Assembly: GCF_046119375.1 (NCBI RefSeq)
Contig: NW_027362767.1
Location: forward strand, 333,064,001 to 333,128,000
Reading direction: 5' to 3'
From: Phyllobates terribilis
Taxonomy: Eukaryota
DNA length: 64,000 nucleotides
Both the position numbers and the translations under genes were made by a program. Below are positions 1,327 to 61,113 of this stretch, in pieces. A model generated the notes under the pieces. That model made no database searches and was not told the DNA's origin. It was given only the letters and a program-made list of their open reading frames with translations. The stretch's first letter is position 1. Every line of letters begins with the position of its first letter.

Positions 1327-1401
1327 TTATCTCCCCTTCTAACATCCCCCTCCACTTGATGCTCATTTTCCTCAACGAGCAGGGGAGCATGAATGCGGTT
1401 C

Positions 1402-3501: not shown

Positions 3502-3529
3502 GTTCGGCAAGACCCTGGCGATCTGATAC

Positions 3530-5366: not shown

Positions 5367-5636
5367 AAAAAAACAGAAATGTAGAATTTTTTGAAAATTC
5401 ATTAAAAAAGAAAAACTGAAATATCACATGGTCATAAGTATTCAGACCCTTTGCTCAGACACTCATATTTAAGTCACATGCTGTCCATTTCCTTGTGATC
5501 CTCCTTGAGATGGTTTTAGTCCTTCATTGGAGTCCAGCTGTGTTTAATTAAACTGATAGGACTTGATTTGGAAAGGCACACACCTGTCTATATAAGACCT
5601 CACAGCTCACAGTTCATGTCAGACCAAATGAGAATC

Positions 5637-6654: not shown

Positions 6655-6883
6655 GCAAAGGGTCTGAATACTTATGACCATGTGATATTTCAGTTTTTCT
6701 TTTTTAATGAATTTGCAAAAATTTCTACATTTGTTTTTTTTTCAGTCAAGATGGGGTGGAGAGTGTACTTTAATGAGAAAAAAAATTAACTTTTTAGAAT
6801 TTACCAAATGGCTGCAATGAAACAAAGAGTAAAAAATTTAAAGTGGTCTGAATACTTTCCGTACCCCCTATACACATGTATAT

Positions 6884-7979
6884 TGTAACGGGTCTGGGAG
6901 GCGGAACCTCTGAGCTACTATACAAGGGGGCGGTCCTTGTAAGGGAGCGGGTGGCGACCAGGGTAGACGGGCAGGCAGTCACAGCAGGTGACTGGGACAG
7001 TCTCTGAATGAACGGGCAGGAGGTCACGGCAAGTGACCGGGGCAGTCTCTGGATGAACGGGCAGGAGGTCACGGCAAGTGACCGGGGCAGTCTCTGGATG
7101 AACGGGCAGGAGGTCACGGCAAGTGACCGGGGCAGTCTCTGGATGAGCGGGCAGGAGGTCACGGCAAGTGACCGGGGCAGTCTCTGGGTAAAGGATTGGT
7201 ACGACCTGTGGCGGCAGATGATAGACGTGAGCTCCCAGGTGAGCAGGCGAGAGTCTCTGGATAATTGGGTGGTCACAGCATGTGACGGCGGAGCCTCCAG
7301 GAAGATCAACAGACAGGTAGCAGATGAGCGCTCCCAGGTGAGCGGGCAAGAGTCTCTGGAATAGCAGGTGGTCACAGCACGTGACGGCGGAGCCTCCAGG
7401 TAGGCAAGCAGGCAGGTAGCGGAGGAGCGCTCCCAGGTGAGCGGGCAGGAGTCTCTGGAATAGCAGGTGGTCACAGCACGTGACGGCGGAGCCTCCAGGA
7501 AGGCTAGCAGGCAGGTAGCAGATGTGCGCTCCCAGGTGAGCGGCCAAGCTGGTCCATAGACAGACTGACAGGAGTAGGAAGGCAGACCGTCGGACCTCAG
7601 GCTAGCAAGCAGGTAGCAGGAATATCAGGCAGGAAACAGACAGCAAACTGGCAGGACTCTGGCAGGAATCAGGCAGGTAACTGGCAACGGGACCTGAGGG
7701 CTGAAGCAGAGTAGTGAACAGTGCAACAACATTGCTCGGGCACCTCCATTTTGGAGGAGGTGCCTTATATATGGTGAAGTCCTCCGGCCATTGGCCGGGG
7801 ACTCCTTAGGACGGCGCGCGCGGCCCCTTTAAGAAGGAGGGAGCGCGCGCGCCCTAAGCACAGTGGCCGGGAAGGAGCGCGCGCTGCCAGCAGAGCGGGA
7901 GGAGGACGCCGGGCTCGGAGCAGAGAGGTGAGGGGAACAGCGTCCCTGACTAGCAGAGGGCAGGGACGCCGACGCTACA
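6884..7979 (-). repeat. 3' LTR (1,096 bp) containing 45-bp x4 and 99-bp x3 tandem arrays
   Basis: Direct repeat of 12180-13277. 45-bp unit starts at 7008, 7053 and onward; 99-bp unit has GGTCACAGCA at 7271, 7370 and 7469. Confidence 0.95.
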
Positions 7980-10900: not shown

Positions 10901-11246
10901 AGAGGGCGTGAGAGAGTCCAGGCAGAACATGAAAAGAGATGCTCTCAGAATGCAGCATTCCCACCTGCAGAGTTACGGATTCGGTGATGAGTTGGATGGG
11001 ACGTGGTAAGAGGCCCCCATCCACAGCAGCGACAGATAATGGTACAGCCAGAGGTTTGGTGGGAATGCGGTATTTCTCTACCAGGGACTGTGAGATAAGA
11101 TTCCCGGCCGCTCCAGAGTCAAGTTGGGCTAGTTCGAAATAACGATTCTCCCCGCAGATAATAGAGACTGACAGTAGCAGAGATGGAGAGGATTTATTCT
11201 TGTCTAGGTTGACCTCTCTGAGCGAACCTAGACACAGGCGTTTCCC
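7950..11246 (-). CDS. pol: Pol polyprotein: protease, reverse transcriptase, RNase H, integrase, chromodomain
   Basis: Frame is open from the GGGAAAC site to the stop at 7950. Motifs LDSGA (PR); KLDLRGAY, VVYLDDILV (RT); VDASS, RELLAIK, YTDHKNL (RH); H-x6-H...C-x2-C, AMDF, VSDRG, NGQVER (IN); PRFIGP (GPY/F); FEVENIL...FLVDWKGFGPEERTWEP (chromodomain). Confidence 0.96.
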   Translation of the reverse strand, partial: GKRLCLGSLREVNLDKNKSSPSLLLSVSIICGENRYFELAQLDSGAAGNLISQSLVEKYRIPTKPLAVPLSVAAVDGGLLPRPIQLITESVTLQVGMLHSESISFHVLPGLSHALLLGLPWLQRHAPVLDWQTGEVLRWGQDCHKTCLVPVHPVRPSPTPTNLPGLPIPYWSFADVFNKKEAETLPPHRPYDCPIDLLPGTTPPRGRIYPLSAAETRSMSEYIEENLARGFIRKSTSPAGAGFFFVKKKDGSLRPCIDYRGLNQIMVKNKYPLPLIPELFDRLRGARVFTKLDLRGAYNLVRIRQGDEWKTAFNTRDGHYEYLVMPFGLCNAPAVFQELVNDIFRDLLYSCVVVYLDDILVFSPDLQTHQRDVRQVLLRLRQNHLFAKYEKCLFEQTSLPFLGYIISQTGLRMDPEKLSAIEKWPRPEGLKAIQRFLGFANYYRLFIPHFSSRTAPISALTRKGTNPKEWPPEAEEAFLSLKQAFSSAPVLHRPDGNKQFFLEVDASSSGAGAVLTQKSSSGRMVTCGFFSKLFSSSERNYSIGDRELLAIKLALEEWRYLLEGALHPVIIYTDHKNLAYLQHAQRLNPRQARWSLFFARFDFDLHFRPADKNIKADALSRSFLVSDLEEEPKHIIDPARVMQVAPVSLNRLPPGKTFVSVPDREKILHWGHSSKLAGHAGQKKTLQLISRHYWWPNLHKDVIDFVSACVSCARNKVPRHLPAGRLLPLPVPAAPWQHIAMDFITDLPVSVGCTVIWVVADRFSKMAHFIPLPGLPSAPKLAKDFIRHIFRLHGLPRHIVSDRGVQFTSRFWRATYKLLDVTLDFSSAYHPQSNGQVERINQILTCYLRYFVNVHHSDWVDLLPWAEFSYNNHESESSSKSPFFVVFGQHPRIPFPVSTSVDNPAAESLVNKFSSTWESTRSALLLSSERMKRHADKKRLDPPQFRPGDKVWLSSKYVRLKIPSYKLGPRFIGPLEVISQINPVAYKLKLPANLRNPNSFHVSLLKPVVLNSFSKSTGTPPPVSAENEFEVENILATKRVRGKTFFLVDWKGFGPEERTWEPRENIHAPLILAKFLSGLKKGGPKGGGYCSVGVPALC

Positions 11247-12166
11247 GACCTCTCCGGGCAGGTACGGATCCGGTGCTCCTTACTGCCACAGTAGAAGCAG
11301 CTCCCTTCGGCACGGCGTAAGTCCTGACGGGTTTTGACCATCTTGGTCTGGTCGACCTGCATAGGCTCAGGAGAGTGTACCTGGGGAGAGACGGATTTCT
11401 GAAAAGTAGGAGCTAGACGTGGAAACCTCCTCTCACGGGTGACCTCTTTGGCACGCTCCTGGAACCGTAGGTCAATCCGGGTGGCAAGAGTTATTAGGTC
11501 ATCGAGAGTGGTAGGAATGTCCCGACCGGCAAGTTCATCTTTAATACGGCCGGACAGACCCTCCCAGGAGACGGATACCAGAGCGTCGTTATCCCAGGCC
11601 AGCTCCGAGGCAAGGGTACGGAACCGTATGGCATATTGGCCCACGGTGAGACTTCCCTGACGGAGGCGTAGCAGAGATGATGCGGATGAGGTCTTCCGTC
11701 TGGGTTCGTCGAAGATTTTCCGGAAAGCCATGAGAAAGGCAGGCAAGTCGGACACCAGGGGGTCTCCTCTCTCCCATAGAGGATTTAGCCAGGCCAGGGC
11801 CTCCCCGGTGAGATGGGACATGATGAAGGCAATTTTGGCCCGGTCGGAGTTAAACTGGTGGGACAGGAGTTCAAAGTGCAGGGTGCACTGATTTATGAAG
11901 CCCCGAGCCTGGGCGGAGTCGCCTCCGAAGCGAGGAGGTGCAGAAAGCCGGGGTCCGGGGTAGGATACCATGGTATTGGTGGGCAGCGGAGCTGCCGGGT
12001 TGCGAGTCATGGCACTGGCGGTGGTTGCTGGTGGAGCAGTCAGAGTGTCCAGGCGAGAATTGACATTCCGCAGGTGACCCAGGATGGACTCCTGTTGGGA
12101 CCTCTGATGGGACAGTTCATGACAGAGGTCCGAGAGCGAGGGAGCTTGGGTGCCACCGGGTTCCAT
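11228..12166 (-). CDS. gag: Gag (capsid plus CCHC nucleocapsid)
   Basis: ATG at 12166 (MEPGGTQ). Motifs PPRFGGD..ARGFINQC..AKIAFIMSHLTGEALAW and zinc knuckle CFYCGSKEHRIRTC; TAG at 11228. Confidence 0.95.
   Translation of the reverse strand: MEPGGTQAPSLSDLCHELSHQRSQQESILGHLRNVNSRLDTLTAPPATTASAMTRNPAAPLPTNTMVSYPGPRLSAPPRFGGDSAQARGFINQCTLHFELLSHQFNSDRAKIAFIMSHLTGEALAWLNPLWERGDPLVSDLPAFLMAFRKIFDEPRRKTSSASSLLRLRQGSLTVGQYAIRFRTLASELAWDNDALVSVSWEGLSGRIKDELAGRDIPTTLDDLITLATRIDLRFQERAKEVTRERRFPRLAPTFQKSVSPQVHSPEPMQVDQTKMVKTRQDLRRAEGSCFYCGSKEHRIRTCPERSGNACV
11240..11246 (-). promoter_or_regulatory. -1 ribosomal frameshift slippery heptamer G GGA AAC at the gag/pol junction
   Basis: gag reads TCG GGA AAC (SGN) while pol reads GGG AAA CGC (GKR), i.e. 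the -1 frame. The heptamer fits X XXY YYZ. Confidence 0.85.
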
Positions 12167-12167
12167 G

Positions 12168-12177
12168 GCCCGAGCAA
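12168..12177 (-). promoter_or_regulatory. Self-priming primer-binding site (Tf1-type)
   Basis: Sense PBS TTGCTCGGGC starts 2 nt after the 5' LTR. It is perfectly complementary to GCCCGAGCAA (13037-13028), which begins 30 nt downstream of TATATAA in the LTR. Confidence 0.8.
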
Positions 12178-12179
12178 AC

Positions 12180-13277
12180 TGTAACGGGTCTGGGAGGCGG
12201 AACATCTGAGCTACTATACAAGGGGGCGGTCCTTGTAAGGGAGCGGGTGGCGACCAGGGTAGACGGGCAGGCAGTCACAGCAGGCGACTGGGACAGTCTC
12301 TGAATGAACGGGCAGGAGGTCACGGCAAGTGACCGGGGCAGTCTCTGGATGAACGGGCAGGAGGTCACGGCAAGTGACCGGGGCAGTCTCTGGATGAACG
12401 GGCAGGAGGTCACGGCAAGTGACCGGGGCAGTCTCTGGATGAGCGGGCAGGAGGTCACGGCAAGTGACCGGGGCAGTCTCTGGGTAAAGGATTGGTACGA
12501 CCTGTGGCGGCAGATGATAGACGTGAGCTCCCAGGTGAGCAGGCGAGAGTCTCTGGATAATCGGGTGGTCACAGCATGTGACGGCGGAGCCTCCAGGAAG
12601 ATCAACAGACAGGTAGCAGATGAGCGCTCCCAGGTGAGCGGGCAAGAGTCTCTCAAATAGCAGGTGGTCACAGCACGTGACGGCGGAGCCTCCAGGTAGG
12701 CAAGCAGGCAGGTAGCGGAGGAGCGCTCCCAGGTGAGCGGGCAGGAGTCTCTGGAATAGCAGGTGGTCACAGCACGTGACGGCGGAGCCTCCAGGAAGGC
12801 TAGCAGGCAGGTAGCAGATGTGCGCTCCCAGGTGAGCGGCCAAGCTGGTCCATAGACAGACTGACAGGAGTAGGAAGGCAGACCGTCGGACCTCAGGCTA
12901 GCAAGCAGGTAGCAGGAATATCAGGCAGGAAACAGACAGCAAACTGGCAGGACTCTGGCTGGAATCAGGCAGGTAACTGGCAACGGGACCTGAGGGCTGA
13001 AGCAGAGTAGTGAACAGTGCAACAACATTGCTCGGGCACCTCCATTTTGGAGGAGGTGCCTTATATATGGTGAAGTCCTCCGGCCATTGGCCGGGGACTC
13101 CTTAGGACGGCGCGCGCGGCCCCTTTAAGAGGGAGGGAGCGCGCGCGCGCCCTAAGCACAGTGGCCGGGAAGGAGCGCGCGCTGCCAGCAGAGCGGGAGG
13201 AGGACGCCGGGCTCGGAGCAGAGAGGTGAGAGGAACAGCGTCCCTGCCTAGCAGAGGGCAGGGACGCCGACGCTACA
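12180..13277 (-). repeat. 5' LTR (1,098 bp) with TATA box at 13067-13061
   Basis: Direct repeat of 6884-7979. Confidence 0.95.
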
Positions 13278-13882
13278 TATATACACAATACACATACATA
13301 TGTATATACACACACGAACTGCACATACACATGTATATACACACACTGCACATACATATCAGCCTGTCTCTGGTTAAAGGATATTTGAGGATATAATGGT
13401 CACATGACCGTGATGTCACCAAAATCCTTAAGCAGGCCTCAGTGGAGGCCTTGAGAAATTGCCCAATTTACCCCCATTTCTCCCTAATGCTGGCCCTGCA
13501 TACCAGCAAAATAAAAATGCTGGGGAAACCTAAGTAAGTGAGGACCCAGGACAATTGAATAGTTTGCGCTCCTCCACCCCATATGTCGGTCCTGAATGGG
13601 ACTAGGGCATATTTTTGGAGTGGGGCTTAAATTTTAAGCATACTCCAAAAATCCTGTAAAATCGTACTAGGGCTTATTTTCTGGGTAGGTCTTATTTGCA
13701 AGGAAACACTGTATAATTCAAAGGACTGGGGTTAAAGAGAACCTGCGAATTTATTCAGGCAGCATGGACCACGTGTATGAAAAATCAGATACTGGCAAAC
13801 ATGTATGTTTTACTCTGAAATGCTGCGTTGACTCGCTGGAGTATGATGTGTCCAATTCATTAAGAGGCGCAAGCCCCATCTA

Positions 13883-25545: not shown

Positions 25546-27489
25546 CTAAAAATCATTTTTATTAATTGAGTTTCATGAAAAACATTGCCCTTTTTTATCT
25601 TCTCTAGCCTCTGTGTTGTACTGTCTATTGCAAGCTGCAGAATGAGGTACCTGAGAATCCACCAGTGAGCTCATTCTGACAGTCTAGTGGGAGAGTTTCT
25701 AATTCTTTAATTCTTTTTAAAGCTGATTTATGTCCCTAGACCACATCACGGTTAAATGTGCAGAGAAACAAAAAGCCAATCAAAGGAAAACAGTGCAACG
25801 TTTTTAATGAAACTGTAAAGATGATTTTTAGCCAAGATACATAAGTATAAGTTACAAGTAAAATTGTCCCCAGAGGTCGACATTGCTCTTTAATTACTTA
25901 AACTTTACTATACGGCACATTAAAATACAAAAAAGGATGAATAATATGTTTAGTTATCAAAGTTCCGCAATAAGGGTCCAATAAGAAAAGATCAATTCAT
26001 TTGTATTTAGAAATATCGTATTCACCGCAGAAGCATCCATGCTAATAAATATATATTTTTTTATAATTTAGCTCTACATGTTAAATTGTATTTTTATGCT
26101 TGGAAGGGATAGCCAATGCTTGCCAATTACAAGATAAATTAATGTTGTAGTTCAATATTAGACAGCAATAATTATTGTTCCCGTATCATTTAAAGTGAGA
26201 CCATTAACATCTGCATAAGGTCCATTAATTGTATCAGGCAGTCTATTATCTCATCTGTCCGGATAGTCATATGTTCCAATGAATAATGTGTAAAGTTAAA
26301 AAAACTTCTGACCTACGAACAACTAAATTACATGCTCACGGCACCTCATCGGAGATTATTTATTAAAAGCTGTCTCCGTTATCAATTTATCTGTTCTATG
26401 ACATTTATGAGAATTGTTTTTACTGTTTTAAGGACTTCATGTCCAACCACTGAAATATAATGTGCCTTAGTATTTAAAGAAATGACAATTACGCCTGTAG
26501 TCCATTAGATGCCAGGAACTCTGCTTTTTGACATGCCAACATGTATCCTATGACAATACCTACTAATTGTAGGGAGCAATGTTAGTTGTCCAGGCATAGC
26601 TACATAAAAAGGAAAATTTGACTTTCTATTTGAGGTCTTCTTCTACACTAGTGTGACATGCAGAAGGAAGTGTCCTGCTTCAGAAGCATCCAGCAACTAG
26701 AGGGATTAACACAGTCACAGGAGACAGGGAGTGGTTAGCAGAGCCTCAGGAGGATTGTGGGGGAGTTGTTTACTATTCTGGTTGCAGCCAAAGAGAGTCG
26801 TGTGTGTGTGATCTGTTCCTGACAGAAGCACAGGCAAGTGAACAAAATTTAAGTCAAGGGTGAAGCTAGGCAAAGGTCACCTACCCTGCATTGCTAGTTC
26901 AGGAAGTCTGTCATCAGGCAGGAAGATAAGGACTGGAAGGAATTGTGTTACAGGGATCATCTCCCTCATCAAACCCTCCCTCCTCCATATCCATGCAGCA
27001 TAAAGAATGCTGTGTACTATTGTGCCTTTGTGAAGGAAAAAACTGTTGTTGTGGGTGCATAGAAGCAGGGCCGGCATCAGCACCCGGGCAAATGCCGGGG
27101 CCCTGAGCAGGCAGAGGGGCCCACTGGCGGTCGCGCACCCGGCTGGGCTATGGGCGGAGGAGAGCGGTGTCAGCGCCCGCCCTTCTCCGCCGCTTGCTCA
27201 GGGCCCCGGCAGCAGGATACTTACCTCTCCCCGTGCCTCCGCAGATCAGCTGTCTTCCTGCTCTGCGCTCCCTGTGACGTCTCAGGTCAGAGGGCGCGGT
27301 GACGTCTTTACACCGCGCCCTCCCCTGAGCCGTCACAGGGAGCGCTGAGCAGGAAGAAGCCGACAATGCTGGAGTTCGGACCCGAGCAGCGGGCAGCAGG
27401 TAGCAGGTGAGGAGAAGGGAGGTGAGTATTTGATTTTTTTTTTTAATGCATGGAGGCATGGGGCAGTATAAAGAGAAGGGGGGGGGCAT

Positions 27490-28460
27490 CCTGCATGGGG
27501 CATTATAAAGAGAGGGGGGGGACATCCTGCATGGGGCATTATAAATAGGGGGGGTGACATCCTGCATGGGGCATTATAAGGTGGGGAACAGCCTGCATGG
27601 GGCATTATGAAGGGGGGGGCAGCCTGCATAGTGCATTATGTGGGGGGGAACAGCCTGCATGGAGCATTATAAGGGGGGGCAGCCTGTATGGGGCATTATG
27701 TGGGGGGGAACAGCCTGCATGGAGCATTATAAGGGGGGGCAGCCTGTATGGGGCATTATGTGGGGGGTAACAGCCTGCATGGAGCATTAAAAGGGGGGTC
27801 CTGTATGGGGCATTATGTGGGGGGTAACAGCCTGCATGGAGCATTATATGGGGGCCAGTATCCTGTATGGAGCATTATAAGGGGACCGGTATCCTGTATG
27901 GAGCGTTATATGGGGGCCAGTATCCTGTATGGAGTTTTATAAGGGGACCAGTATCCTGTATGGAGAGTTATATGGGGGCCAGTATTCTGTATGGAGCTTT
28001 ATAAGGGGACCAGTATCCTGTATGGAGAGTTATATGGGGGCCAGTATTCTGTATGGAGCCTTATATGGGGGCCAGTATTCCGTATGGAGCCTTATATGGG
28101 GGCCAGTATTTCGTATGGGGCCTTATATGGGGGCCAGTATTCCGTATGGAGCCTTATATGGGGGCCAGTATTCTGTGTGGAGCCTTATATGGGGGCCAGT
28201 ATTCCGTATGGTGCCTTATATGGGGGCCAGTATTCCGTATGGGGCCTTATATGGGGGCCAGTATTCGGTATGGAGCGTTATATGGGGGCCAGTATTCCGT
28301 ATGGAGCCTTATATGGGGGCCAGTATTCCGTATGGAGCCTTATATGGGGGCCAGTATTCCGTATGGAGCCTTATATGGGGGCCAGTATTCCATATGGAGC
28401 CTTATATGGGGGCCAGTATTCTGTATGGAGCCTTATATGGGGGCCAGTATTCTGTGTGGA
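27490..28460. repeat. Compound G-rich minisatellite (about 30-bp CTGCATGGGGCATTAT.. units grading into 31-bp CAGTATTCCGTATGGAGCCTTATATGGGGGC units)
   Basis: Period 31 measured at 28321, 28352, 28383 and 28414. Confidence 0.92.
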
Positions 28461-28545
28461 GCGATTCACCGGTTTCTGAGCTATTGTGGAATTTACAATA
28501 GATATCGCTCATGTAATGTAAGAAGTGAAATCTTTGCATTGTACT

Positions 28546-28576
<31 letters not shown>

Positions 28577-28578
28577 AA

Positions 28579-29790
28579 TGTAGCACCCTGAGGATTCGGC
28601 TGCTACAGGGGTATTGCACCTCAACCCAGAGGTGTGATATTCCACTCCCGGGTAAGGATGGAGTGTGGAACTGAGCTCGGTAGGCTGCATGCACTACACA
28701 CATCCCATTTCCGGGGAACAGGCCGACGGTACTCCCACTTAGAAATGTGCAGGTACGACCGAGTCTGTTCCTGGCTGGAGTGGGAGGGGGGTGGTACATC
28801 CCAAGTAGTGTAGGGGCAGATAGGGGGAGCAGCCTGGGTAAAGATAGGAGCTCATTGGGTGCTGGTCACCTGAGCTCACACATAGAGGGTGTATATAAGG
28901 TGGGCACCATCAAAGAACAGGGTCAGTCAGCCACAGTCAGTCAGGCTGTGAGTCTTTGCAGAGAGAAGTCAGAGGAGCAGAGCAGCCCCAGAGAGAGAGA
29001 GAGGAGAAGAGAGAGAGAGACCCAGAGGGGGAAACTGAAGAAAAGGACTCCAAGAACCTAACTTAAATCCCCGGGTGAAGAGTCGGCACAGGGTACCGGA
29101 ACCCAAGCTGGTGGGGGCAAAAACACTCCCCAGCCAGAGACCGGAGACCGTGGGCAGCGTTTGCCACGGTCACCCACCACATCCACCACGAAGGCATACC
29201 ACGAGGAGGGTCAGGGAACCCAAGGCCAAGGGTCTCCCAACAGAAGGCCCGAGGGAGCTGGACCTGGGTGGATCAATAGTGGGGACGGCCAGAGAAAGGA
29301 CAGAAGGAGAGCTCAGGGTCACGCTCCGGACTTGCTTGGGGGTTGGCTGGATCCAGGACCTGGTGGATGCAGCACGGCTCGGGAGGTCACTTGAAGCTGG
29401 AGTGACCGGAACATCAGCAGTGAGTAAATACCCTTAACTGCATAACCCGACTCTGTCTTCATTACCATCTATGCTGCACCACCACAACCCCCATCCTCTG
29501 CACCTGACCCCCTGAGGCTATACCCCACCCGTTGGGGGTTATATCATCACAAGCTGCACCTACACCATCAGCCTCAGCGGACCCTGCTGCAGCGGCGGCC
29601 ATAGTGACCGCAATACAACGGGTGACGTAGTCGACAAAAAGAACTTAGTAACATCAGTAAGGACTGCCACATACAACTGAGTTTGACACCCTGGGCACGG
29701 ACCGGGTCACAGCCACTCGGAAGACTACAACTCCCATCTGATCCGGCTCCGGATATTCCCCCTAAAGAATATGGCCCAGGGGGCGCGTCA
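28579..29790 (+). repeat. 5' LTR (TATA box GTATATAAGG at about 28891; AGTAAA poly(A)-like signal at about 29425)
   Basis: Direct repeat offset by exactly 3,672 bp from 32251-33462. Confidence 0.95.
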
Positions 29791-31840
29791 ACTTTGGCGT
29801 AGTCGGCAGGATTACGTGCCCGCAACACCCGGGTACTGCGTGCCTGAAGGAAAGTGCAAGTTTACCTCAAGAAGAAGTCTCCTGCCGGTTCCGGAGGGTC
29901 CCCGCCATCGGACCCCATCACCAGTCGATTCCAGCCGGTTGTCCGCCATTAACAACTTTTTCCCGCCATCTGCAGAGTTTCCCGCCACTGGGAAGCGATT
30001 CCCGCCATTTCCAAAGGTTTCCCGCCTTGGAAGAGCGGACGCCATTATGGGCGTGCCAGAGGGTGGCGAGAGGCCGCCTCCCATCGTGGGCCAGGACCGA
30101 AAATGGCGCCAAAAGTGGAAACCGCCCCCACCAACAGAGACTGTGATGCTAGAGGTGTCTGTCAGCGTGAAAGAACCGCCCCTGGAGCTGACAGTCACCC
30201 AGTGGCCCCGGGACCGCCCTCGAAGTGGGAGGAGACGAAAGAAAAGAACGAAGATGGGTGCCGCCTGGAGCAGTCTAGAGCGAGCGCACCCGGAGGCAAG
30301 AAGCCTGGAGAAGAGTAGCAGAGAAGCTCACCCGGAGATGGCGAGAGAGCAGAGCAGCACCGGCCCGCTGGCCAGGAGCCTGCTGGAAGAAGAGCAGAGC
30401 AGCACCGACCCGTTGGTCAGGAGCCTGCTGGAAACCACGACCCCACTAGGCCTAGTGGAGGTCCTTGCACAGCTCCCCCGAGACCGGGAGTGTGCACAGA
30501 CTGCCCTGGAGGGCCTCGCACGGAGGATGGCCCGGGTACAGCGAGAGACATTGGCGGAGTGGAGCCGAGAGATGGCCCAGCAAACCAAGACCCGGAGCAC
30601 GCCAGCCAAGATGAGGAGACAGACCGCCTCTGAGGATGGCGCGGGAGGACCCAAGGCCGGAGACGGCGCCGAGAAGGGAGCCGAACGCATGGAGGCAGGT
30701 AAAGGGGACGTCTATACCCCAAACAAGGACACCGCTTGCCTGCCCCAGCTCCCCGTCGCAGAGCCCGAAAGTCCCCCTGCTGTGCCCGAAAACGCCATGT
30801 CACCGACGCAGACTAGGCCCCAACCGGAAGCCGCCGCCGCGACCCCTGTGACGTCACACGCACCGACCCCGAGCGTGACCAAGCAGGAAGTACCACCAGC
30901 CTGGTCGCAGGGCCTAGAATTCCCGGGCGTCGCATCACCAACAGCGCCCCCTACCTCCGCGGAGCCTCCGGCCTGGCCGCAAGGCCAGGTAGCCCAGGGC
31001 GCCGCCGTCCTAACGGTGCCCTTCACCTTCCAGGTGCCCCAGGCCTGGCCGCAAGGCCTGGGCAACCCGGGCGCCACCACCACCGCGCCCGCACCCGTAA
31101 AACCAAGGGTGCCGCGTCTGGGAGAGGACTTGTTTGCCCAGCACACGTGGCCGGACGGGCAGCCTTTCATCTGGCCCCAGGAATATTATGGACTGGAGCG
31201 CCAGAGGAGGGTTGGGGCCATGTGTGCACCCCTGATTCCGGCTCCGAAGCCCGTGATAAGGATCTCGCCCCCGCTTGGAGAGACCCAATTTGAGTGGGAC
31301 CCCACCGGAGAAGACCTAATGGGGTTCACTCAGGAAACCAGGGCAGCTGCAGCAGAGCGTGCTGAGTGTTGCCGACAGCAGCTCGAGGAGTTTGCGAGGG
31401 AGCGGAGAGAGAGGCGGGTCCGGGAACAACAGGCCCAAATAAGGAGCGCCGAGCAGAAGAGCCGAACCAGGAGGGACCCCCGTGCAGCGCACAGTCCCCG
31501 CACCACCGGGACTGTAGTAAAGTTTAACCTGCAGCACGGGTGGGGCTTCAACAGAGACAACAACACCCCCGGCGACGTCTTTGTCACGCGCAGAGATGTG
31601 GAGTCCCATCTGCCGGAGGGGCACAGAGGTCGTGACCTTTACATCGGGGACGAGGTCACCTTTACCCGGCACAAGTGTGCCAAAGGACCTTACGCCCTCC
31701 ATGTGCATCGCCTGACAGAAGAGGAGCTGCGATGTGAGGAGGAAGAGCAAGAGGATACGGACGGGTCTGAAGCTGAGATCCCCAAAGAAGGAGCAGGAGG
31801 AAGACGTTGTTGGGTACAGCGGAGCAGGTGCTGTAAATAG
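29771..31840 (+). CDS. 689-aa retroelement-encoded protein: low-complexity Pro/Ala-rich and coiled-coil regions plus a C-terminal Y-box-like cold-shock domain (aa 578-647); true start codon uncertain
   Basis: Stop-free over 2,067 nt. TGTVVKFNLQHGWGF...GDVFVTRRDV...LYIGDEVTF...KGPYALHV aligns with the YBX1 CSD GTVKWFNVRNGYGFI...EDVFVHQTAI...VGDGETVEF...KGAEAANV. Confidence 0.8.
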   Translation: MAQGARQLWRSRQDYVPATPGYCVPEGKCKFTSRRSLLPVPEGPRHRTPSPVDSSRLSAINNFFPPSAEFPATGKRFPPFPKVSRLGRADAIMGVPEGGERPPPIVGQDRKWRQKWKPPPPTETVMLEVSVSVKEPPLELTVTQWPRDRPRSGRRRKKRTKMGAAWSSLERAHPEARSLEKSSREAHPEMAREQSSTGPLARSLLEEEQSSTDPLVRSLLETTTPLGLVEVLAQLPRDRECAQTALEGLARRMARVQRETLAEWSREMAQQTKTRSTPAKMRRQTASEDGAGGPKAGDGAEKGAERMEAGKGDVYTPNKDTACLPQLPVAEPESPPAVPENAMSPTQTRPQPEAAAATPVTSHAPTPSVTKQEVPPAWSQGLEFPGVASPTAPPTSAEPPAWPQGQVAQGAAVLTVPFTFQVPQAWPQGLGNPGATTTAPAPVKPRVPRLGEDLFAQHTWPDGQPFIWPQEYYGLERQRRVGAMCAPLIPAPKPVIRISPPLGETQFEWDPTGEDLMGFTQETRAAAAERAECCRQQLEEFARERRERRVREQQAQIRSAEQKSRTRRDPRAAHSPRTTGTVVKFNLQHGWGFNRDNNTPGDVFVTRRDVESHLPEGHRGRDLYIGDEVTFTRHKCAKGPYALHVHRLTEEELRCEEEEQEDTDGSEAEIPKEGAGGRRCWVQRSRCCK
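29795..29813 (+). promoter_or_regulatory. Primer-binding site complementary to tRNA-Ser (AGA/CGA/TGA isoacceptor family)
   Basis: TGGCGTAGTCGGCAGGATT is the reverse complement of the vertebrate tRNA-Ser 3' end AATCCTGCCGACTACG-CCA (19/19). Confidence 0.93.
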
Positions 31841-32241
31841 TTACCCGATCGGGGTATAAAGAAACTGTTACTGCAAATATAGTCCCCGTTGGGACCAGCT
31901 GAGTGAACTGTTTACCCGTTTACCCTTAATCCCACAGGCTGAGGACTGTGAGCAGCCATTCCCTTTCCCTCCTTAACTGGCCGAGGACTGAGAGCGGCCA
32001 TACCCCTGTATATAGTTGCGCGTCCTAAAGCGCCCCCTACCGGTTTTATAGGAAAACCATGTTTTTCTAGAAAGACTGTCGCACTTTGCCCGGTCAACAG
32101 TTGCACAGTGACCGGAGGAGGAGCCAGAGGCGACGAGAAAGTTTTATATATATAATGTTTTATATATTTTATATGTTTATGAAAAATTTTGTATGTTTTT
32201 GGTGTTATGTCTTACAGCCCGAGGACGTGCTGTGATTTACC

Positions 32242-32250
32242 AGGGGGGAA
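32242..32250 (+). promoter_or_regulatory. Polypurine tract
   Basis: AGGGGGGAA immediately before the TG of the 3' LTR. Confidence 0.88.
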
Positions 32251-33462
32251 TGTAGCACCCTGAGGATTCGGCTGCTACAGGGGTATTGCACCTCAACCCA
32301 GAGGTGTGATATTCCACTCCCGGGTAAGGATGGAGTGTGGAACTGAGCTCGGTAGGCTGCATGCACTACACACATCCCATTTCCGGGGAACAGGCCGACG
32401 GTACTCCCACTTAGAAATGTGCAGGTACGACCGAGTCTGTTCCTGGCTGGAGTGGGAGGGGGGTGGTACATCCCAAGTAGTGTAGGGGCAGATAGGGGGA
32501 GCAGCCTGGGTAAAGATAGGAGCTCATTGGGTGCTGGTCACCTGAGCTCACACATAGAGGGTGTATATAAGGTGGGCACCATCAAAGAACAGGGTCAGTC
32601 AGCCACAGTCAGTCAGGCTGTGAGTCTTTGCAGAGAGAAGTCAGAGGAGCAGAGCAGCCCCAGAGAGAGAGAGAGGAGAAGAGAGAGAGAGACCCAGAGG
32701 GGGAAACTGAAGAAAAGGACTCCAAGAACCTAACTTAAATCCCCGGGTGAAGAGTCGGCACAGGGTACCGGAACCCAAGCTGGTGGGGGCAAAAACACTC
32801 CCCAGCCAGAGACCGGAGACCGTGGGCAGCGTTTGCCACGGTCACCCACCACATCCACCACGAAGGCATACCACGAGGAGGGTCAGGGAACCCAAGGCCA
32901 AGGGTCTCCCAACAGAAGGCCCGAGGGAGCTGGACCTGGGTGGATCAATAGTGGGGACGGCCAGAGAAAGGACAGAAGGAGAGCTCAGGGTCACGCTCCG
33001 GACTTGCTTGGGGGTTGGCTGGATCCAGGACCTGGTGGATGCAGCACGGCTCGGGAGGTCACTTGAAGCTGGAGTGACCGGAACATCAGCAGTGAGTAAA
33101 TACCCTTAACTGCATAACCCGACTCTGTCTTCATTACCATCTATGCTGCACCACCACAACCCCCATCCTCTGCACCTGACCCCCTGAGGCTATACCCCAC
33201 CCGTTGGGGGTTATATCATCACAAGCTGCACCTACACCATCAGCCTCAGCGGACCCTGCTGCAGCGGCGGCCATAGTGACCGCAATACAACGGGTGGCGT
33301 AGTCGACAAAAAGAACTTAGTAACATCAGTAAGGACTGCCACATACAACTGAGTTTGACACCCTGGGCACGGACCGGGTCACAGCCACTCGGAAGACTAC
33401 AACTCCCATCTGATCCGGCTCCGGATATTCCCCCTAAAGAATATGGCCCAGGGGGCGCGTCA
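32251..33462 (+). repeat. 3' LTR of the CSD element
   Basis: Direct repeat of 28579-29790. Confidence 0.95.
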
Positions 33463-40237: not shown

Positions 40238-40951
40238 GTAAGCTGAAAAAATATATATATATTTTGCAGAAACGTAGTTGAGAATGTTAGCCCCATGCTA
40301 CACACAACCCAAAAACATGTTGCAATATCTATACTATCATAAGTAATTCTCCTAATAACTGGGTTTATATCACTTAGCCAAGCAAAGCGAATCATTTAGT
40401 CCTAAAATGTCCCTTTACTTTCTTTATATGTTGAATATTTAAGTATTTTTAATAACCATAAAAGTTGGCAGCATTTTTACAAAGTGTAGCACAGCTCTGC
40501 AATCTGTCATTTGGAGATTATAGTTTAGAATGAAAATTTCTATGTAGCAGATGTGAACATAATAATTTAGCTTGTACTCAGTTTGGCCTACATGGCAGGG
40601 GGCAGTTTGGTCAAATCCTGATAATTTAGGCTGCAGTAAGGGGTTATTTATCCAATACTGGATAATAAAGTTAATAGTTGCTGCAGAACTTCTAAAACCA
40701 AGGTACTTTCTGAAATCCTAAATATCAAAGCAAGCTTTTCACAGATGTCTAAGTACTAATTTGTAGGGCAGTATATCACTAAAAACTTGCCCGAAAACGT
40801 AATATTTAATTTTTGGGAGTTTTTATTCATTTCTGCACTACAATTTTATCCATTAAAAAAAATTTATAAGTAGACGCTATCGTGAGATATGAATACTTAA
40901 AACATACAGTTGAAACCAGAAGTTTGCATACACTATATAAAAAGACACATA

Positions 40952-42521
<1,570 letters not shown>

Positions 42522-44064
42522 TATGCATGTTTTTCTCAATATCTGACATGAATTCAGAATATCTCATGATGCTATCTATTTTGTGAAGTGCACCAGTTCC
42601 TCCTGTAGAAAAACAACCCCACAACATGATGCTGCCACCCCTGTGTTTCACAGTTGGGATGGTGATTTTAGGATTCCAAGCTTCTCCCTTTTTTCTCCAA
42701 AAGTAACGATGGTCATTATGCCCAAAAAGTTTAAGTTTCGTTTCATCAGACCACAGGACATTTCTCCAAAAATTAAGGTCTTTGTTCCTGTGTGCATTTG
42801 AAACCATTAATCTAGCTTTTTTATGTTTATTTTGGATTAATGGCTTCTTCCTGGCAGAGTGGCCTTTCAGCCCATGTTGATATAGTACTTGTTTCACTGT
42901 GGATATTGACACAATCTTATCAGCTTCCGCCATCATCTTCACAAGGTCTTTTGCTTTTGTTCTTGGGTTGATATGCACATGTCGGACCAAAGCACGTTCA
43001 TCTCTGGGACATAGAACCCGTCTCTTTCCTGAGCGGTATGATGGCTGGACATTCCCATCTTTTATGTACTTGTGTATAATTGTTTGTACAGATGAACGAG
43101 GCACCTTCAGGTATCTTGAAATCATACCCAAGGATGAGACAGACTTGTGAAAGTCCACTATTCTCTTCCTGATATCTTGGCTGGTTTCTTTAGACTTTCC
43201 CATGATGCTACACAAACAAGCAGTGTGTTTCAGGTGTGCATTAAAAAACATCCACAGGTGTGTCTCTAATTAACTCAGATGTTGCCAAAAAAATCTATCA
43301 GAAGCTTCCAAACACATGACATCATCATATGGGCAGTCCAGAATTGTTTAAAGGCATAGTAATCTTAGTGTATGTAAACTTTTGACTTTGTATAAGTAAT
43401 AAAAATGCCTTAAAACATTCTCTCTCTCATTATTCTGGCATTTGGCAAATATTAAAAATTATGGTAATCCTAATTGACCTAAAATGTGAAAGGTTTATTC
43501 TGATTTCATGTCAGATATTGAGAAACACATGCATATGTGTCTTTTTATATAGTGTATGTAAACTTCTGGTTTCAACTGTACTCCAGCATAATAAAGACTA
43601 AATTTAACCATCTATTTGACAGAAGGGTTAGCAATGCTTAATAGTCCACATATACAGTTTAGTCCAGATTTATGTGGACAGTAACAAATAGCCTCTGAAC
43701 ACCAGTCTGGAGTGCAATACTTTGTATACGTTGGTGCTTTGCTAGGTCTTTACCGCAATCACTAGTAAAGACTAATGTGGCCTCTTTATTTTTGAGTATT
43801 AAGGATGCATTTACTCTGAAAGATTATAGTGAAATGTGGGTTCCCATGAACACTTGTTTCATGGCAATCCTGCAGTGTAAACAGGCAGCCGATCACCCGA
43901 TGAAAGAGCAAAACACTCATTTGTCGGGTGAAATTATTTTATTTTCTGCTGCACAAAATAGCCTCTTTCTCGGCAGCACATCATTCTGTGTAAACAGAAC
44001 TCATGCTGCTGAGAACACTGACAGCCTGTGCACACTAAATCTATGACAGGCTGTTTAGTGCACA

Positions 44065-45378: not shown

Positions 45379-45414
45379 TAAAGTGTACATTCATATCCTG
45401 ATGATTTTGTTATA

Positions 45415-47062
45415 CAGTTAGGTCCATATATATTTGGACAGAGACAACATTTTTCTAATTTTGGTTCTAGACATTACCACAATGAATTTTAAACAAAACA
45501 ATTCAGATGCAGTTGAAGTTCAGACTTTCAGCTTTCATTTGAGGGTATCCACACTAAAATTGGATGAACGGTTTAGGAGTTTCAGCTCCTTAACATGTGC
45601 CACCCTGTTTTTAAAGGGACCAAAAGTAATTGGACAATTGACTCCAAGGCTATTTCATAGACAGGTGTGGGCAATCCCTTCGTTATGTCATGCTCAATTA
45701 AGCATATAAAAGGCCTGGAGTTGATTTGAGGTGTGGTGCTTGCATTTGGAAGGTTTTGCTGTGAAGTAAACATGCGGTCAAAGGAATTCTCCATGCAGGT
45801 GAAACAAGCCATCCTTAAGCTGCAAAAACAGAAAAAACCCATCCGAGAAATTGCTACAATATTAGGAGCGGCAAAATCTACAGTTTGGTACATCCTGAGA
45901 AAGAAAGAAAGCACTGGTGAACTCATCAATGCAAAAAGACCTGGGCGCCCACGGAAGACAACAGTGGCGGATGATCGCAGAATAATCTCCATGGTGAAGA
46001 GAAACCCCTTCACAACAGCCAACCAAGTGAACAACACTCTCCAGGAGGTAGGCGTATCAATATCCAAATCTACCATTAAGAGAAGACTGCATGAAAGTAA
46101 ATACAGAGGGTTCACTGCACGGTGCAAGCCACTCATAAGCATCAAGAAGAAAAAGGCTAGACTGGACTTTGCTAAAAAACATCTAAAAAAGCCAGCACAG
46201 TTCTGGAAGAACATTCTTTGGACAGATGAAACCAAGATCAACCTCTACCAGAATGATGGAAAGAGAAAAGTATGGCGAAGGCGTGGTACAGCTCATGATC
46301 CAAAGCATACCACATCATCTGTAAAACACGGCGGAGGCAGTGTGATGGCTTGGGCATGCATGGCTGCCAGTGGCACTGGGTCACTAGTGTTTATTGATGA
46401 TGTGACACAGGACAGAAGCAGCCGAATGAATTCTGATGCATTCAGAGCCATACTGTGTGCTCAGATCCAGCCAAATGCAGCCAAACTGATTGGTCATCGT
46501 TTCATACTACAGATGGACAATGACCCAAAGCATAAAGCCAAAGCAACCCAGGAGTTTATTAAAGCAAAGAAGTGGAATATTCTTGAATGGCCAAGTCAGT
46601 CACCTGATCTCAACCCAATTGAGCATGCATTTCACTTGTTAAAGACTAAACTTCAGACAGAAAGGCCCACAAACAAACAGCAACTGAAAACCACCGCAGT
46701 GAAGGCCTGTCAGAGCATCAAAAAGGAGGAAACACAGCGTCTGGTGATGTCCATGAGTTCAAGACTTCAGGCAGTCATTGCCAACAAAGGGTTTTCAACC
46801 AAGTACTAGAAACGAACATTTTATTTACAATTATTTAATCTGTCCAATTACTTTTGGTCCCTTTAAAAACAGGGTGGCACATGTTAAGGAGCTGAAACTC
46901 CTAAACCCTTCATCCAATTTTAATGTGGATCCCCTCAAATGAAAGCTGAAAGTCTGAATTTCAACTGCATCTGAATTGTTTTGTTTAAAATTCATTGTGG
47001 TAATGTCTAGAACCAAAATTAGAAAAATGTTGTCTCTGTCCAAATATATATGGACCTAACTG
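45415..47062 (+). mobile_element. Full-length Tc1 transposon with TIRs of about 220 bp
   Basis: TA|CAGTTAGGTCCATATATATTTGGACAGAGAC...GTCTCTGTCCAAATATATATGGACCTAACTG|TA. Confidence 0.96.
45772..46809 (+). CDS. Tc1 transposase, uninterrupted ORF (345 aa, DD34E)
   Basis: MRSKEFSMQVKQ..., RPGRPRKT, WTDETK, KHGGGSVMAW, MDNDPKH...SPDLNPIEH, ends KGFSTKY*. Confidence 0.88.
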   Translation: MRSKEFSMQVKQAILKLQKQKKPIREIATILGAAKSTVWYILRKKESTGELINAKRPGRPRKTTVADDRRIISMVKRNPFTTANQVNNTLQEVGVSISKSTIKRRLHESKYRGFTARCKPLISIKKKKARLDFAKKHLKKPAQFWKNILWTDETKINLYQNDGKRKVWRRRGTAHDPKHTTSSVKHGGGSVMAWACMAASGTGSLVFIDDVTQDRSSRMNSDAFRAILCAQIQPNAAKLIGHRFILQMDNDPKHKAKATQEFIKAKKWNILEWPSQSPDLNPIEHAFHLLKTKLQTERPTNKQQLKTTAVKACQSIKKEETQRLVMSMSSRLQAVIANKGFSTKY

Positions 47063-47178
47063 TAAATCTATGTACTGGTGTACAGAGGCAAAATTAAGGA
47101 AATTCTGTCCAAATGTTTCTGGACTCAATAGTATGTGCAATAAACATATGTGATGAAAATGAGCATGAGAGAACGTGG

Positions 47179-48705: not shown

Positions 48706-49358
48706 GTAAGTTAGTGCTAAACATACTCCCTGCTTTAATACAAAACAGATCTACTACTCGCTGACACTACATAATCTGCAGTCTGCTGTCCAATATTTAT
48801 CTGGCCTCTCCAAAGAGAGGAAGGGAGAGGGTAGAGCTCAGGAGGAGTGGAGATAACCGATGAAGAGCCATGTGTGACATTCAATAGTTGATGTCTTCTG
48901 CTGGCTTGAAGAAGGAGACCTAGATCCCTGAAACGTATTGCCTATTTTGTACGTTTTTTTGCGCTCATTCTTTTAGTCTACTTTTTTTTTTTATCATATT
49001 TTATGAATTTTCACTTTTATATACATTTGTAATAAACATATTTATTTAGTACATTAAGAATCAATGGATTAATTTGAGCTCTTCCACCTTCATTTTCCTT
49101 TTTGGATTTTTCTGATCCTCTCGGTTTTGAATACACATATTCCAGGCTAGGTTGGCTACTACTGCTTAGAGACTCTGGAAAAATCAGCTTAATTTTCCAT
49201 ATCAATCTTATATTTGTTACATCCTAAGCAAGTAGCGTTTCTTGTATAAATTTGGACATCACACCGGTGGAAGAGTACTGTCATGTGACTACATGTTGTC
49301 CACGCTAGGTTTTAAAATAAATAACATTTCCTGCTGATTACGCCTATGTTCCCACAAC

Positions 49359-49440
49359 TTGGTCGTGATGGAGAGGTTAAGGCGATGAACTAGATATCCA
49401 TTAGGGTCTTCCCGTGCAGGTTGACACCCTGCCGACTATG
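49359..49440 (+). pseudogene. tRNA-Ser(AGA)-derived pseudogene, unit 1
   Basis: 82 nt, 66/82 identical to the canonical vertebrate tRNA-Ser-AGA as recalled. Anticodon AGA is kept; box B is altered to GGTTGACACCC. Confidence 0.85.
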
Positions 49441-49456
49441 TCTATGTTCCCACAAC

Positions 49457-49538
49457 TTGGTTGTGGCCGTGCTGTTAAGGCGATGGACTAAAAATCCATT
49501 AAGTTCTCTCTGCCCAGGTTGACATCCTGCCGACTACG
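49457..49538 (+). pseudogene. tRNA-Ser-derived pseudogene, unit 2
   Basis: 82 nt, 98 bp downstream of unit 1. TTAAGGCGATGGACTA(A)AAATCCATT...CAGGTTGACATCCTGCCGACTACG; anticodon mutated to AAA. Confidence 0.85.
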
Positions 49539-50812
49539 TCTCTGTTCCCACAACTTATTAGTGGCCGACAGGTTTTAAAATACATAGCATTTCAAGGAAA
49601 CATGCACACTAACCATTTTAAAGAATGTTTTTTGGTTACTATAAGTGTTTCACTTTGTCATCTGTCCCAATGGAATGAAAAGAATCCACAGACTGATTTG
49701 CTATTATCGGATTTCATAAAACATAGTAGTTTTGGTTTAAATTGGTTTAATGTTTTAATTTTTAAGGAAATTTGTGAGGTAGAAAGTTTTGAGAAAATTT
49801 TTTATCTAGATATGGCAACCATGACAAAAAAAAGACAGATTCATGATCTGTTCTTGGTCTTTCCAGACAATTTTAAACAATCCACATTAGGGTCTCGTGC
49901 ACACAACCATTTAAATTGGATGAGTGCTATCCGTGGTTTTGATGGATAATACTAGTACCCATGTTATGCTAAGGGGCTGTGCACATGTCCAATTTTTTCC
50001 TTGACCCGAACGGTCTGAGTGATAAAAGGGTGACATGTCTGATTTTAATCTGAGTGTCGGATCAAAATCGGCAATGCAAGTCTATGGGTTCATGGAGAAC
50101 ATCGGACAGCAGTTGTATAAAATCTGAGTGTGGTCCGATTTTAACAAACTGACTGAATAGAGAAGGTGGAGAAACTTTTCTCTTTCTCAGCACCTAAGAG
50201 AAAAATGGGTTATGCTAATCAGAGTCTGATTAGCATAATTGGACCATTTTCTTGGATGAAGAGAAAACAGTTGTGTGACCCTAACCTTCAGATGTGATAC
50301 ATCCTGTTGTGTTGCGATAAGATTTGAGTTTATTTTCCTTCTCTTAACTTTCTTTATTTTTTTATTTTGTAAAGTAAAATAATGTGATATGTTCACATTT
50401 GAATGTAAAACTTAAAATCACAAATGAAGAAAATAAAAAAGTGGAATATAAATGCCTTTCTGTAACTTTCTATGAAAACTTTATCATGTTTTGGTCTTAC
50501 TTTCAAATATTAAAAAATGGCAAAGACTCATGAGGCAACCTTGACATTGCTTTTTCCCAATAGCTGTAGCCCCAGAAGTTGAGGGTCTACTTTTCAATAC
50601 ATGAAGGCATTAGAGTAACATGGAATGAATATCTCAATGTCCTATCGTGTCATCTCTCCGACAGAGGGTGTCTGAAGAGTGAATGATTTTCAACACCCAA
50701 TCCTTTGATTCTATGGCATATTGCCTCCCAATGTCTTACTCCTTTCTGTTCATTCAGAACACTTGCATGCTTGGTCAAAATGAGTGTGCATGTGAATAGG
50801 GAAGGTGGGCAG

Positions 50813-57887: not shown

Positions 57888-61113
<3,226 letters not shown>

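What the first reader, a model, noticed from the sequence alone, without database searches (positions are those of the whole stretch)
31502..31711. The cold-shock domain looks eukaryotic Y-box type but has altered RNP motifs
Seen: TTGTVVKFNLQHGWGFNRDNNTPGDVFVTRRDVESHLPEGHRGRDLYIGDEVTFTRHKCAKGPYALHVHR. RNP1 reads HGWGFN (YBX1 NGYGFI) and RNP2 reads DVFVT (YBX1 DVFVH). The loop before the fourth strand (ESHLPEGHRGRD) is long, as in YBX1 (KKNNPRKYLRS), not short as in bacterial CspA. The domain follows a basic/acidic coiled-coil (EEFARERRERRVREQQAQIR) and precedes an acidic tail (EEELRCEEEEQED), recalling the charged blocks of Y-box proteins. Inference: an ancient capture of a host YBX/Lin28-like domain that diverged, perhaps with changed specificity. 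The Asn at the RNP1 Ile position may be a mutation private to this copy.
Basis: partly seen in the sequence, partly recalled or inferred. Interest (0 to 1): 0.7.

Follow-up and report, generated by a model that had tools for sequence, protein, structure and literature searches.

The report
Remodelled cold-shock domain in frog retrotransposon
A frog jumping gene present in thousands of copies has no copying enzymes of its own but keeps, under strong selection, a cold-shock domain whose predicted RNA-binding face has been rebuilt across the whole family; the domain likely came from a host Y-box protein and likely binds the element's own RNA.

Summary
The domain is real: Pfam CSD above cut-off, five-strand barrel predicted at pLDDT 89. 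It ends the single ORF of a young 4,884-bp LTR element with no gag or pol; 3,025 exact copies of a 23-mer from it lie in the genome. The Asn is private: 45 of 46 near copies read Ile. Two other changes are family-wide: Lys/Arg at YBX1 Trp65 (117 of 118) and no His at His87 (Thr/Asn dominate), while Phe74 and Phe85 are kept. dN/dS is 0.08-0.16, so the domain is remodelled, not decaying. Y-box origin is favoured by loop length and PDB profile ranking but not shown: the tree leaves the donor open and a reverse profile test prefers bacterial Csp. LIN28 hallmarks are absent; the charged-block likeness to YBX is superficial. A young gag-pol Gypsy family shares the primer site and leader but lacks the CSD. 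Binding and function are untested. The scan met this element family before on other DNA (e1-9364210, e1-9315796, e1-9153317). CSD capture is published for bird ERVs.

The parts
28579..29790 (+). 5' LTR, 1,212 bp, TG...CA
   Evidence: One difference from the 3' LTR; flanks TAAA/TATA in a TA run, an imperfect 4-bp duplication
29795..29812 (+). Primer-binding site, complementary to a tRNA 3' end (Ser type; the name is partly recalled)
   Evidence: a decayed tRNA with a long variable arm at window 49457-49538 ends in the complementary letters; same site in 16 of 16 gag-pol copies
29813..30337 (+). Leader; open in frame but likely mostly non-coding, its first part shared with the gag-pol family
   Evidence: dN/dS 0.44-0.74 with low dS; alignment with the partner's 5' UTR
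30338..31840 (+). Likely coding part, 500 aa from the Met conserved across families (frame open from 29687)
   Evidence: Same Met context found in 14 of 19 family ORFs examined; 30 of 30 indels are multiples of three in 6 pairs (partly circular); no Gag similarity (hhalign prob 0.1)
30485..30595 (+). Predicted amphipathic helix in the N-terminal part
   Evidence: AlphaFold helix 50-86, pLDDT 72-85; dN/dS 0.10-0.77
31295..31474 (+). Conserved W...LMGF motif followed by a 45-residue charged helix
   Evidence: dN/dS 0.08-0.21 for the 84 codons before the CSD; helix pLDDT 83-96, motif under 50
31502..31711 (+). Cold-shock domain with remodelled RNP face
   Evidence: residue tallies; dN/dS
31550..31552 (+). 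Asn codon private to this copy (siblings read Ile)
31712..31780 (+). Short acidic tail in place of the YBX C-terminal extension
31841..32250 (+). 3' UTR with three GAGGAC-core repeats and a polypurine tract at 32242-32250
32251..33462 (+). 3' LTR

Best explanation
The domain is a conserved, selected cold-shock domain at the end of the only protein of an enzyme-less Ty3/Gypsy-type LTR element; it likely descends from a host Y-box protein and is predicted to bind single-stranded RNA, most likely the element's own transcript, which would help that RNA survive and be picked up by the particles of a related gag-pol family. Shown: element anatomy, copy number, purifying selection, residue pattern, shared primer site and leader with a gag-pol family. 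Predicted: five-strand barrel. Inferred: RNA binding (about 0.8), Y-box origin (about 0.6), use of that gag-pol family as helper (about 0.7), action on its own RNA (about 0.5). With Trp65 and His87 replaced, Phe74/Phe85 kept, Tyr72 changed to Trp and new conserved Arg/His residues after RNP2 and in the long loop, it would bind more by charge and would not read CAUC or m5C as YBX1 does.
For: Fold: Pfam, AlphaFold strands E12-21, 26-31, 37-41, 63-71, 74-82, Z 12.4 / rmsd 1.7 / 69 aligned to CspA and Z 11.4 / 2.5 / 75 to YB-1. Selection: dN/dS 0.08-0.16 in 8 of 11 pairs, 3 saturated; bootstrap upper bound <=0.33 in 6 of 6; Pro-rich linker 0.41-0.72. Surface: F74 eq. 118 of 118, F85 eq. 117, K118 eq. 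Lys/Arg 112, Trp at Y72 eq. 114, Arg at T89 eq. 113; domain pI 9.0. YBX contact residues from PMC7498358 (passages) and PMC7825780 (passages and section 17). Origin: loop 20-21 in all 27 element-type CSDs and 20 in 5 of 6 YBX-type domains; element profile ranks eight YBX1/2 chains first among PDB chains, 48-50 bits against 44.5 for CspA; the profile of the 7 most distant relatives scores the frog YBX best, 59.0 against 51.0 for the best Csp. Passenger status: no pol between the LTRs in 40 loci of 10 kb; 4-bp duplications in 15 of 17 copies and in 10 of 12 gag-pol copies; 16 of 16 gag-pol copies share primer site, leader and U5 at about 70-79% and carry no CSD; both groups have LTR pairs at >=99%; a repeated chimera joins the partner's gag start to a CSD-ORF tail and returns to the partner's 3' UTR, as expected if the RNAs met during reverse transcription.
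Against: No binding, expression or protein evidence. Two of the four base-stacking residues of YBX1 are gone family-wide. The donor is unresolved: no AU test rejects YBX, LIN28, Csp, CSDE1 or dinoflagellate CSP, the larger tree leaves the element clade in a polytomy, structure searches rank bacterial Csps level with or above YBX, group profiles prefer Csp for 26 of 27 (the Csp set was found with the element as query and is broader than the YBX set), and the dendrobatid-core profile scores eight non-YBX domains above YBX. The gag-pol family replicates without a CSD, so the domain is not needed for the basic cycle. U3/R are not shared, and a second gag-pol family has the same LTR end with another primer site, so the helper is not pinned down. 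The chimera could have formed at the DNA level. The dN/dS pairs all include the window copy and are not independent; the 118 copies are best hits, not a random sample.
Confidence: 0.5

Rival explanations
1. The protein acts in trans as a mimic or antagonist of host RNA control (competing with Y-box masking proteins or shielding Gypsy RNAs from silencing), helping both passenger and gag-pol elements.
For: Selection on the CSD and the motif before it; the gag-pol family lacks the domain yet co-amplifies; host YB-1 supports HIV RNA metabolism (PMC6040738, abstract); repeated CSD capture by bird ERVs (PMC12287698, passages).
Against: A purely trans benefit should be lost to cheating deletion copies (inference); the ORF has been kept in many families. 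The YBX m5C-reading Trp is gone, which makes close mimicry less likely.
Confidence: 0.22
2. The CSD did not come from a vertebrate YBX gene but from another source (an older element-borne CSD, a protist or a bacterial-type Csp); the long loop arose separately. This concerns origin only.
For: Csp ranks first or tied; 26 of 27; not rejected; Lys at the Trp site also occurs in two bacterial proteins in the alignment.
Against: Loop length matches YBX and no Csp, LIN28, CSDE1 or dinoflagellate domain sampled; PDB profile ranking; capture of a host mRNA is the usual route for animal retroelements (own knowledge).
Confidence: 0.35
3. The barrel has become a protein-binding module (for Gag or a host factor) and no longer binds nucleic acid.
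For: Trp65 and His87 equivalents lost family-wide; new conserved loop residues.
Against: Both central Phe, the loop-45 basic residue and a net basic charge are kept; CSDE1 domains lack the Trp and bind RNA (PMC7825780).
Confidence: 0.1
4. LIN28-like regulator of let-7 or other stem-loop RNAs.
For: AU test does not reject (p 0.31).
Against: No CCHC knuckles; no L2 insertion; loop 21 against 16; 22-24 bits; LIN28 scores lowest or second lowest of five groups for all 27.
Confidence: 0.03
5. Neutral cargo: a decaying captured fragment.
For: This copy carries a private polar change in RNP1; many older copies have stops.
Against: dN/dS about 0.1 between families with dS up to 2; 30 of 30 indels keep the frame; relatives in four frog genera.
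Confidence: 0.03

Closest known systems
CSD-carrying endogenous retroviruses of birds (He et al. 2025, PMC12287698; abstract, passages, two rows of supplementary table 6 seen)
   Same: LTR retroelements that captured a cold-shock domain, read as convergent and possibly adaptive; 46 ERVs reported.
   Different: Those are retroviruses with RT; the two rows seen have near-canonical scores (1e-24 to 1e-26). Here the element is Gypsy-associated, has no gag/pol, and the CSD is deeply diverged, selected and present in thousands of copies.
Y-box proteins YBX1-3 (PMC7498358 passages; PMC7825780 passages and section 17)
   Same: CSD fold, long loop between strands 3 and 4, Phe74/Phe85/Lys118 positions, best PDB profile hits.
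   Different: About 30% identity; no Trp65, no His87, no C-terminal extension with Tyr138, no long C-terminal charged domain; CSD is last, not near the N-terminus.
[quoted passage not shown]
   Same: Frog LTR elements without pol; 1a11 and xretpos carry an ORF; embryonic expression reported.
   Different: 1a11 is described as Gag-like and low in copy number; no CSD is mentioned in the passages seen; sequences were not compared here.
Ty3/Gypsy gag-pol family in the same genome with PNMA-like Gag (L182-L197)
   Same: Primer site, first ~55 nt of leader, U5 end, polypurine tract style, 4-bp duplication, recent age.
   Different: Has gag, PR, RT, RH, IN; no CSD; different U3/R; its clade was not placed on a tree.
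LINE-1 ORF1p (recalled, no call)
   Same: Works-like comparison: helical segment plus RNA-binding domain acting on its own RNA.
   Different: Different fold and element class; oligomer formation not shown here.

Membership tests
Cold-shock domain (PF00313) | Profile score above curated cut-off | tested here: met
   33.7 bits against 27; an Ile-bearing sibling 39.3
Cold-shock domain (PF00313) | Five-stranded antiparallel barrel | tested here: met
   Predicted, pLDDT 89; Z 12.4, rmsd 1.7, 69 aligned
Cold-shock domain (PF00313) | RNP1 [YF]GFI and RNP2 ending in His (as given in PMC7825780) | tested here: not met
   Family reads WGFI and [VL]FV[TN]; this copy WGFN; Phe of both motifs kept
Cold-shock domain (PF00313) | Binds single-stranded nucleic acid | not testable with these tools
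   Needs a binding assay
Y-box protein (YBX1-3) | CSD nearly identical to YBX | tested here: not met
   29-32% identity
Y-box protein (YBX1-3) | Long loop between strands 3 and 4 | tested here: met
   21 against 20 residues
Y-box protein (YBX1-3) | Trp65 and His87 stacking residues | tested here: not met
   Lys/Arg in 117 of 118; His not among the five commonest residues at the His87 site, Thr 71, Asn 42
Y-box protein (YBX1-3) | C-terminal extension (G130-A140) and long charged C-terminal domain | tested here: not met
   Acidic tail of about 40 residues then stop; host exon for the extension differs; no match outside the CSD
Y-box-derived CSD (origin) | Groups with YBX in a tree | tested here: inconclusive
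   p-AU 0.29
LIN28 | Tandem CCHC zinc knuckles | tested here: not met
   Only CSD found in the ORF
LIN28 | Seven-residue insertion in loop L2 | tested here: not met
   Alignment
Non-autonomous LTR retrotransposon | LTR pair, primer site, polypurine tract, target duplication | tested here: met
Non-autonomous LTR retrotransposon | No gag/pol | tested here: met
Non-autonomous LTR retrotransposon | Shares cis signals with an autonomous family | tested here: met
   16 of 16 copies; alignment
Non-autonomous LTR retrotransposon | Actually mobilised by that family | not testable with these tools
   Indirect only: chimera, matching ages
Endogenous retrovirus | Retroviral gag/pol/env in the element or its partner | tested here: inconclusive
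   None in the element; partner has PNMA/Retrotrans_gag and Gypsy-type pol families and no room for env; no RT tree was built

The most novel reading that the evidence does not exclude
A lineage of gag-less, pol-less Gypsy passengers has kept a Y-box-derived cold-shock domain since before poison frogs and toads split, and has rebuilt it into a private RNA adaptor that loads the passenger's own RNA into a helper's particles, a satellite-like strategy that helps explain how enzyme-less elements reach thousands of copies in giant frog genomes.
Probability: 0.3. Interest if true: 0.75.

Novelty: new variant of a known kind. Interest (0 to 1): 0.52.

Why it matters
Enzyme-less LTR elements are usually treated as passive deletion products. 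Here one keeps a non-Gag protein under selection as strong as a working gene, with a host-type RNA-binding fold whose contact face has been changed consistently. It gives a small, soluble, testable domain for the open questions of how non-autonomous elements win packaging and why retroelements repeatedly capture cold-shock domains. It also warns that several frog gene models named YBX2-like or fused to host genes are likely pieces of these elements.

Tried and rejected
Sequencing runs: no RNA holder listed; 9 runs of 3 studies hold 0.39-0.48 of the words, RNA status only guessed. Contigs of 4 runs cover all 30 bins of 28579-32100 and show the Ile codon where they cover it, but cannot show transcription; not used as evidence. 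Two-copy fold of the C-terminal 173 residues: no answer, score 0.00. Atlas search gave only generic Csp clusters under 0.9. Viral fold library: phage and giant-virus Csps only. Gag similarity: none. Search for relatives of the YBX-like unnamed protein P0164 found only itself. The first pol family tried as helper (L141-L156) has another primer site. The tRNA pattern search found fragments, not whole genes; ARAGORN called one Ala, Rfam none. The two His-retaining copies L071/L202 could not be shown to lie in an LTR element, so they are not used as 'ancestral element' evidence; L198 looks like a decayed YBX copy and L200 is unplaced. Trees: one search left out 29 of 61 rows (long branches and near-copies) and used LG+G4; CARHSP1, DIS3 and plant CSPs were not in the trees. 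Literature: five searches for a CSD in Gypsy, frog or non-autonomous elements and one on poison-frog repeats listed no description; PMC12208295 has 0 hits for 'cold shock' or 'CSD' in its main text. Repbase, Dfam and subscription papers were not searchable. The YB-1 mutagenesis paper was not held, so effects of losing Trp65 or His87 on affinity are not quoted.

Full report
Observation. The 70 residues quoted are at 31502-31711 (+), at the end of a 717-codon open frame. Pfam gives CSD at 33.7 bits, cut-off 27, and nothing else in the ORF. An AlphaFold model from 25 sequences has five strands and pLDDT 89; it matches CspA (Z 12.4, rmsd 1.7, 69 aligned) and YB-1 (Z 11.4, rmsd 2.5, 75 aligned), too close to tell apart by fold.

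The element. The ORF lies between two 1,212-bp LTRs (28579-29790, 32251-33462) that differ at one base, with a primer site at 29795 and a polypurine tract before the 3' LTR. A decayed tRNA with a long variable arm elsewhere in the window ends in the complementary letters; the name Ser is partly recalled. All 150 scored hits in G000 are 96-100% identical and a 23-mer from RNP2 occurs 3,025 times exactly, control 0. Of 20 near copies taken at 10 kb, 15 of the 17 that could be scored have exact 4-bp duplications and the 15 LTR pairs displayed are 99-100% identical. No pol lies between the LTRs in these or in 20 loci of other families; pol hits lie outside the element or on the other strand. Named relatives come from Phyllobates, Ranitomeya, Anomaloglossus and Bufo; the context of the Bufo and Logan proteins could not be read.

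Which changes matter. The Asn is private: 29 of 29 other top hits, 45 of 46 near copies and 115 of 118 copies overall read Ile (best hits, not a random sample; 36 duplicate or unplaced loci were dropped first). Using YBX1 numbering and contacts from PMC7498358 (passages): Phe74 is kept in 118 of 118, Phe85 in 117, Lys118 as Lys/Arg in 112, Tyr72 is Trp in 114, but Trp65 is Lys/Arg in 117 and His87 is Thr (71) or Asn (42). New near-invariant residues follow RNP2 (Arg, Arg, Asp) and fill the long loop (His, His, Arg). The YBX C-terminal extension is replaced by an acidic tail. The Trp is the m5C-reading residue of YBX1 (PMC7825780, section 17), so that function is predicted to be lost. Trp-less CSDs are not unique: CSDE1 domains and two bacterial proteins in the alignment lack it.

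Selection. Between the window copy and 11 copies of other families, dN/dS in the CSD is 0.08-0.16 in 8 pairs and saturated in 3; bootstrap upper bounds are <=0.33 in 6 of 6; the 84 codons before the CSD give 0.08-0.21, the Pro-rich linker 0.41-0.72, the 5' part 0.44-0.74. All 30 indels in 6 pairs are multiples of three (ORFs were chosen as open). A Met in a shared context (window 30338) was found in 14 of 19 family ORFs, near where the partner's gag starts, so the protein is likely 500 aa: helix, disordered linker, conserved motif, 45-residue charged helix, CSD, acidic tail. It shows no Gag similarity.

Origin. For YBX: loop length 20-21 in all 27 element-type domains, 20 in 5 of 6 YBX-type domains, 12-18 in all LIN28, CSDE1, Csp and protist domains sampled; PDB ranking YBX 48-50 bits, CspA 44.5, LIN28 22-24, CARHSP1 19; the 7 most distant relatives point to frog YBX (59.0 against 51.0). 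Against: the frog element domains form one side of a branch (86/96 with 61 rows; 90/88 with 32 rows) but their sister is unresolved, and AU tests reject none of five donors (p 0.29-0.41); group profiles prefer Csp for 26 of 27, and the dendrobatid-core profile ranks eight non-YBX domains above YBX, though those sets were found with the element as query. I put YBX origin at about 0.6. LIN28 is unlikely. The charged blocks are not homologous to YBX as far as tested.

Partner. A young gag-pol family (16 copies, 14 with LTR pairs >=99%) has the same primer site, a similar leader and U5 at 70-79%, and no CSD in 16 of 16; Pfam shows PNMA/Retrotrans_gag, RT, RNase H and integrase; 10 of 12 scored copies have 4-bp duplications. 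A repeated short element (40 of 40 scored hits at >=99%) has 322 bases of that gag at 98%, then about 300 bases like a CSD-family ORF tail and 3' UTR at 70%, then the partner's 3' UTR and LTR at 95-97%. That fits template switching between co-packaged RNAs but does not prove it. A second gag-pol family shares the LTR end with another primer site.

Mechanism. Best reading (0.5): the passenger is copied by the partner's enzymes; its own protein binds its RNA through the remodelled CSD, protecting it or favouring its packaging. Rivals: trans-acting mimic of host RNA control (0.22), protein-binding module (0.1), LIN28-like (0.03), neutral cargo (0.03); non-YBX donor 0.35 as a separate question.

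Known and new. CSD capture is published for 46 bird ERVs (PMC12287698, passages and two supplement rows), a lead from note e1-9364210. Pol-less frog LTR elements are known (PMC4585706, passages). Searches listed no description of a CSD in a Gypsy passenger; Repbase and subscription journals were out of reach. The scan noted this family three times before in this genome and CSDs in other retroelements elsewhere (unchecked AI notes). Verdict: real, a new variant of a known kind, interest 0.52.

Noticed in passing
L116:156-3645 (-); G000:C4 about 810.59 Mb: Short LTR element joining the gag start of the gag-pol family in frame to a CSD-ORF tail, then returning to the gag-pol family's 3' UTR; at least 40 copies at >=99%, many on C19 and one region of C4.
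   Followed up: partly
window about 6800-13300 (-): Chromodomain-bearing Ty3/Gypsy element with gag (11228-12274) and 1,109-aa pol frame (7950-11279), LTRs with internal tandem repeats.
   Followed up: no
window about 420-4420 (-): Internally deleted Gypsy element: gag-protease frame followed directly by integrase H2C2 and SH3 pieces, no RT.
   Followed up: no
window 49330-49574: Three 98-bp tandem units of a decayed tRNA with long variable arm; its 3' end complements the element's primer site.
   Followed up: partly
window 27469-28567: 31-bp minisatellite array ending in the TA run into which the element inserted.
   Followed up: no
window 5367-6742, 40905-43580, 45413-47064, 55710-60327: Several Tc1/mariner-type transposons with inverted repeats, some nested; large nested inverted repeats at 55.7-60.3 kb.
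   Followed up: no
L061-L066; G000:C1 about 734.44 Mb: Intron-less, duplicated CSDE1-like copies with long open frames, apparently retrocopies.
   Followed up: no
P0003, P0150, P0155, P0158, P0145, P0156: Frog gene models in which an element-type CSD is fused to R3H, transposase, MIF4G or protease domains, or is named YBX2-like; likely annotation chimeras or element ORFs.
   Followed up: partly
L219:5148-5228 (-): An element-type CSD lies about 5 kb upstream of a YBX exon, probably inside an intron of that YBX gene.
   Followed up: no
L228, L229 (G000:C4 about 791.5 Mb): Two related divergent CSD ORFs that keep the RNP2 His; LTR context not found, could be another element or a duplicated host-side gene.
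   Followed up: partly
L230:2947-7044 (-): Decayed LTR element with unrelated LTRs carrying another divergent CSD.
   Followed up: partly
P0164: Unnamed protein with a clearly YBX-like CSD and extension, a Pro-rich linker and a tail that I recall as macro-domain-like (Pfam showed only CSD); possibly another element-borne CSD.
   Followed up: partly
L105, L109, L110, L118: Tandem and multi-LTR arrangements of the CSD element are common among fetched copies.
   Followed up: no
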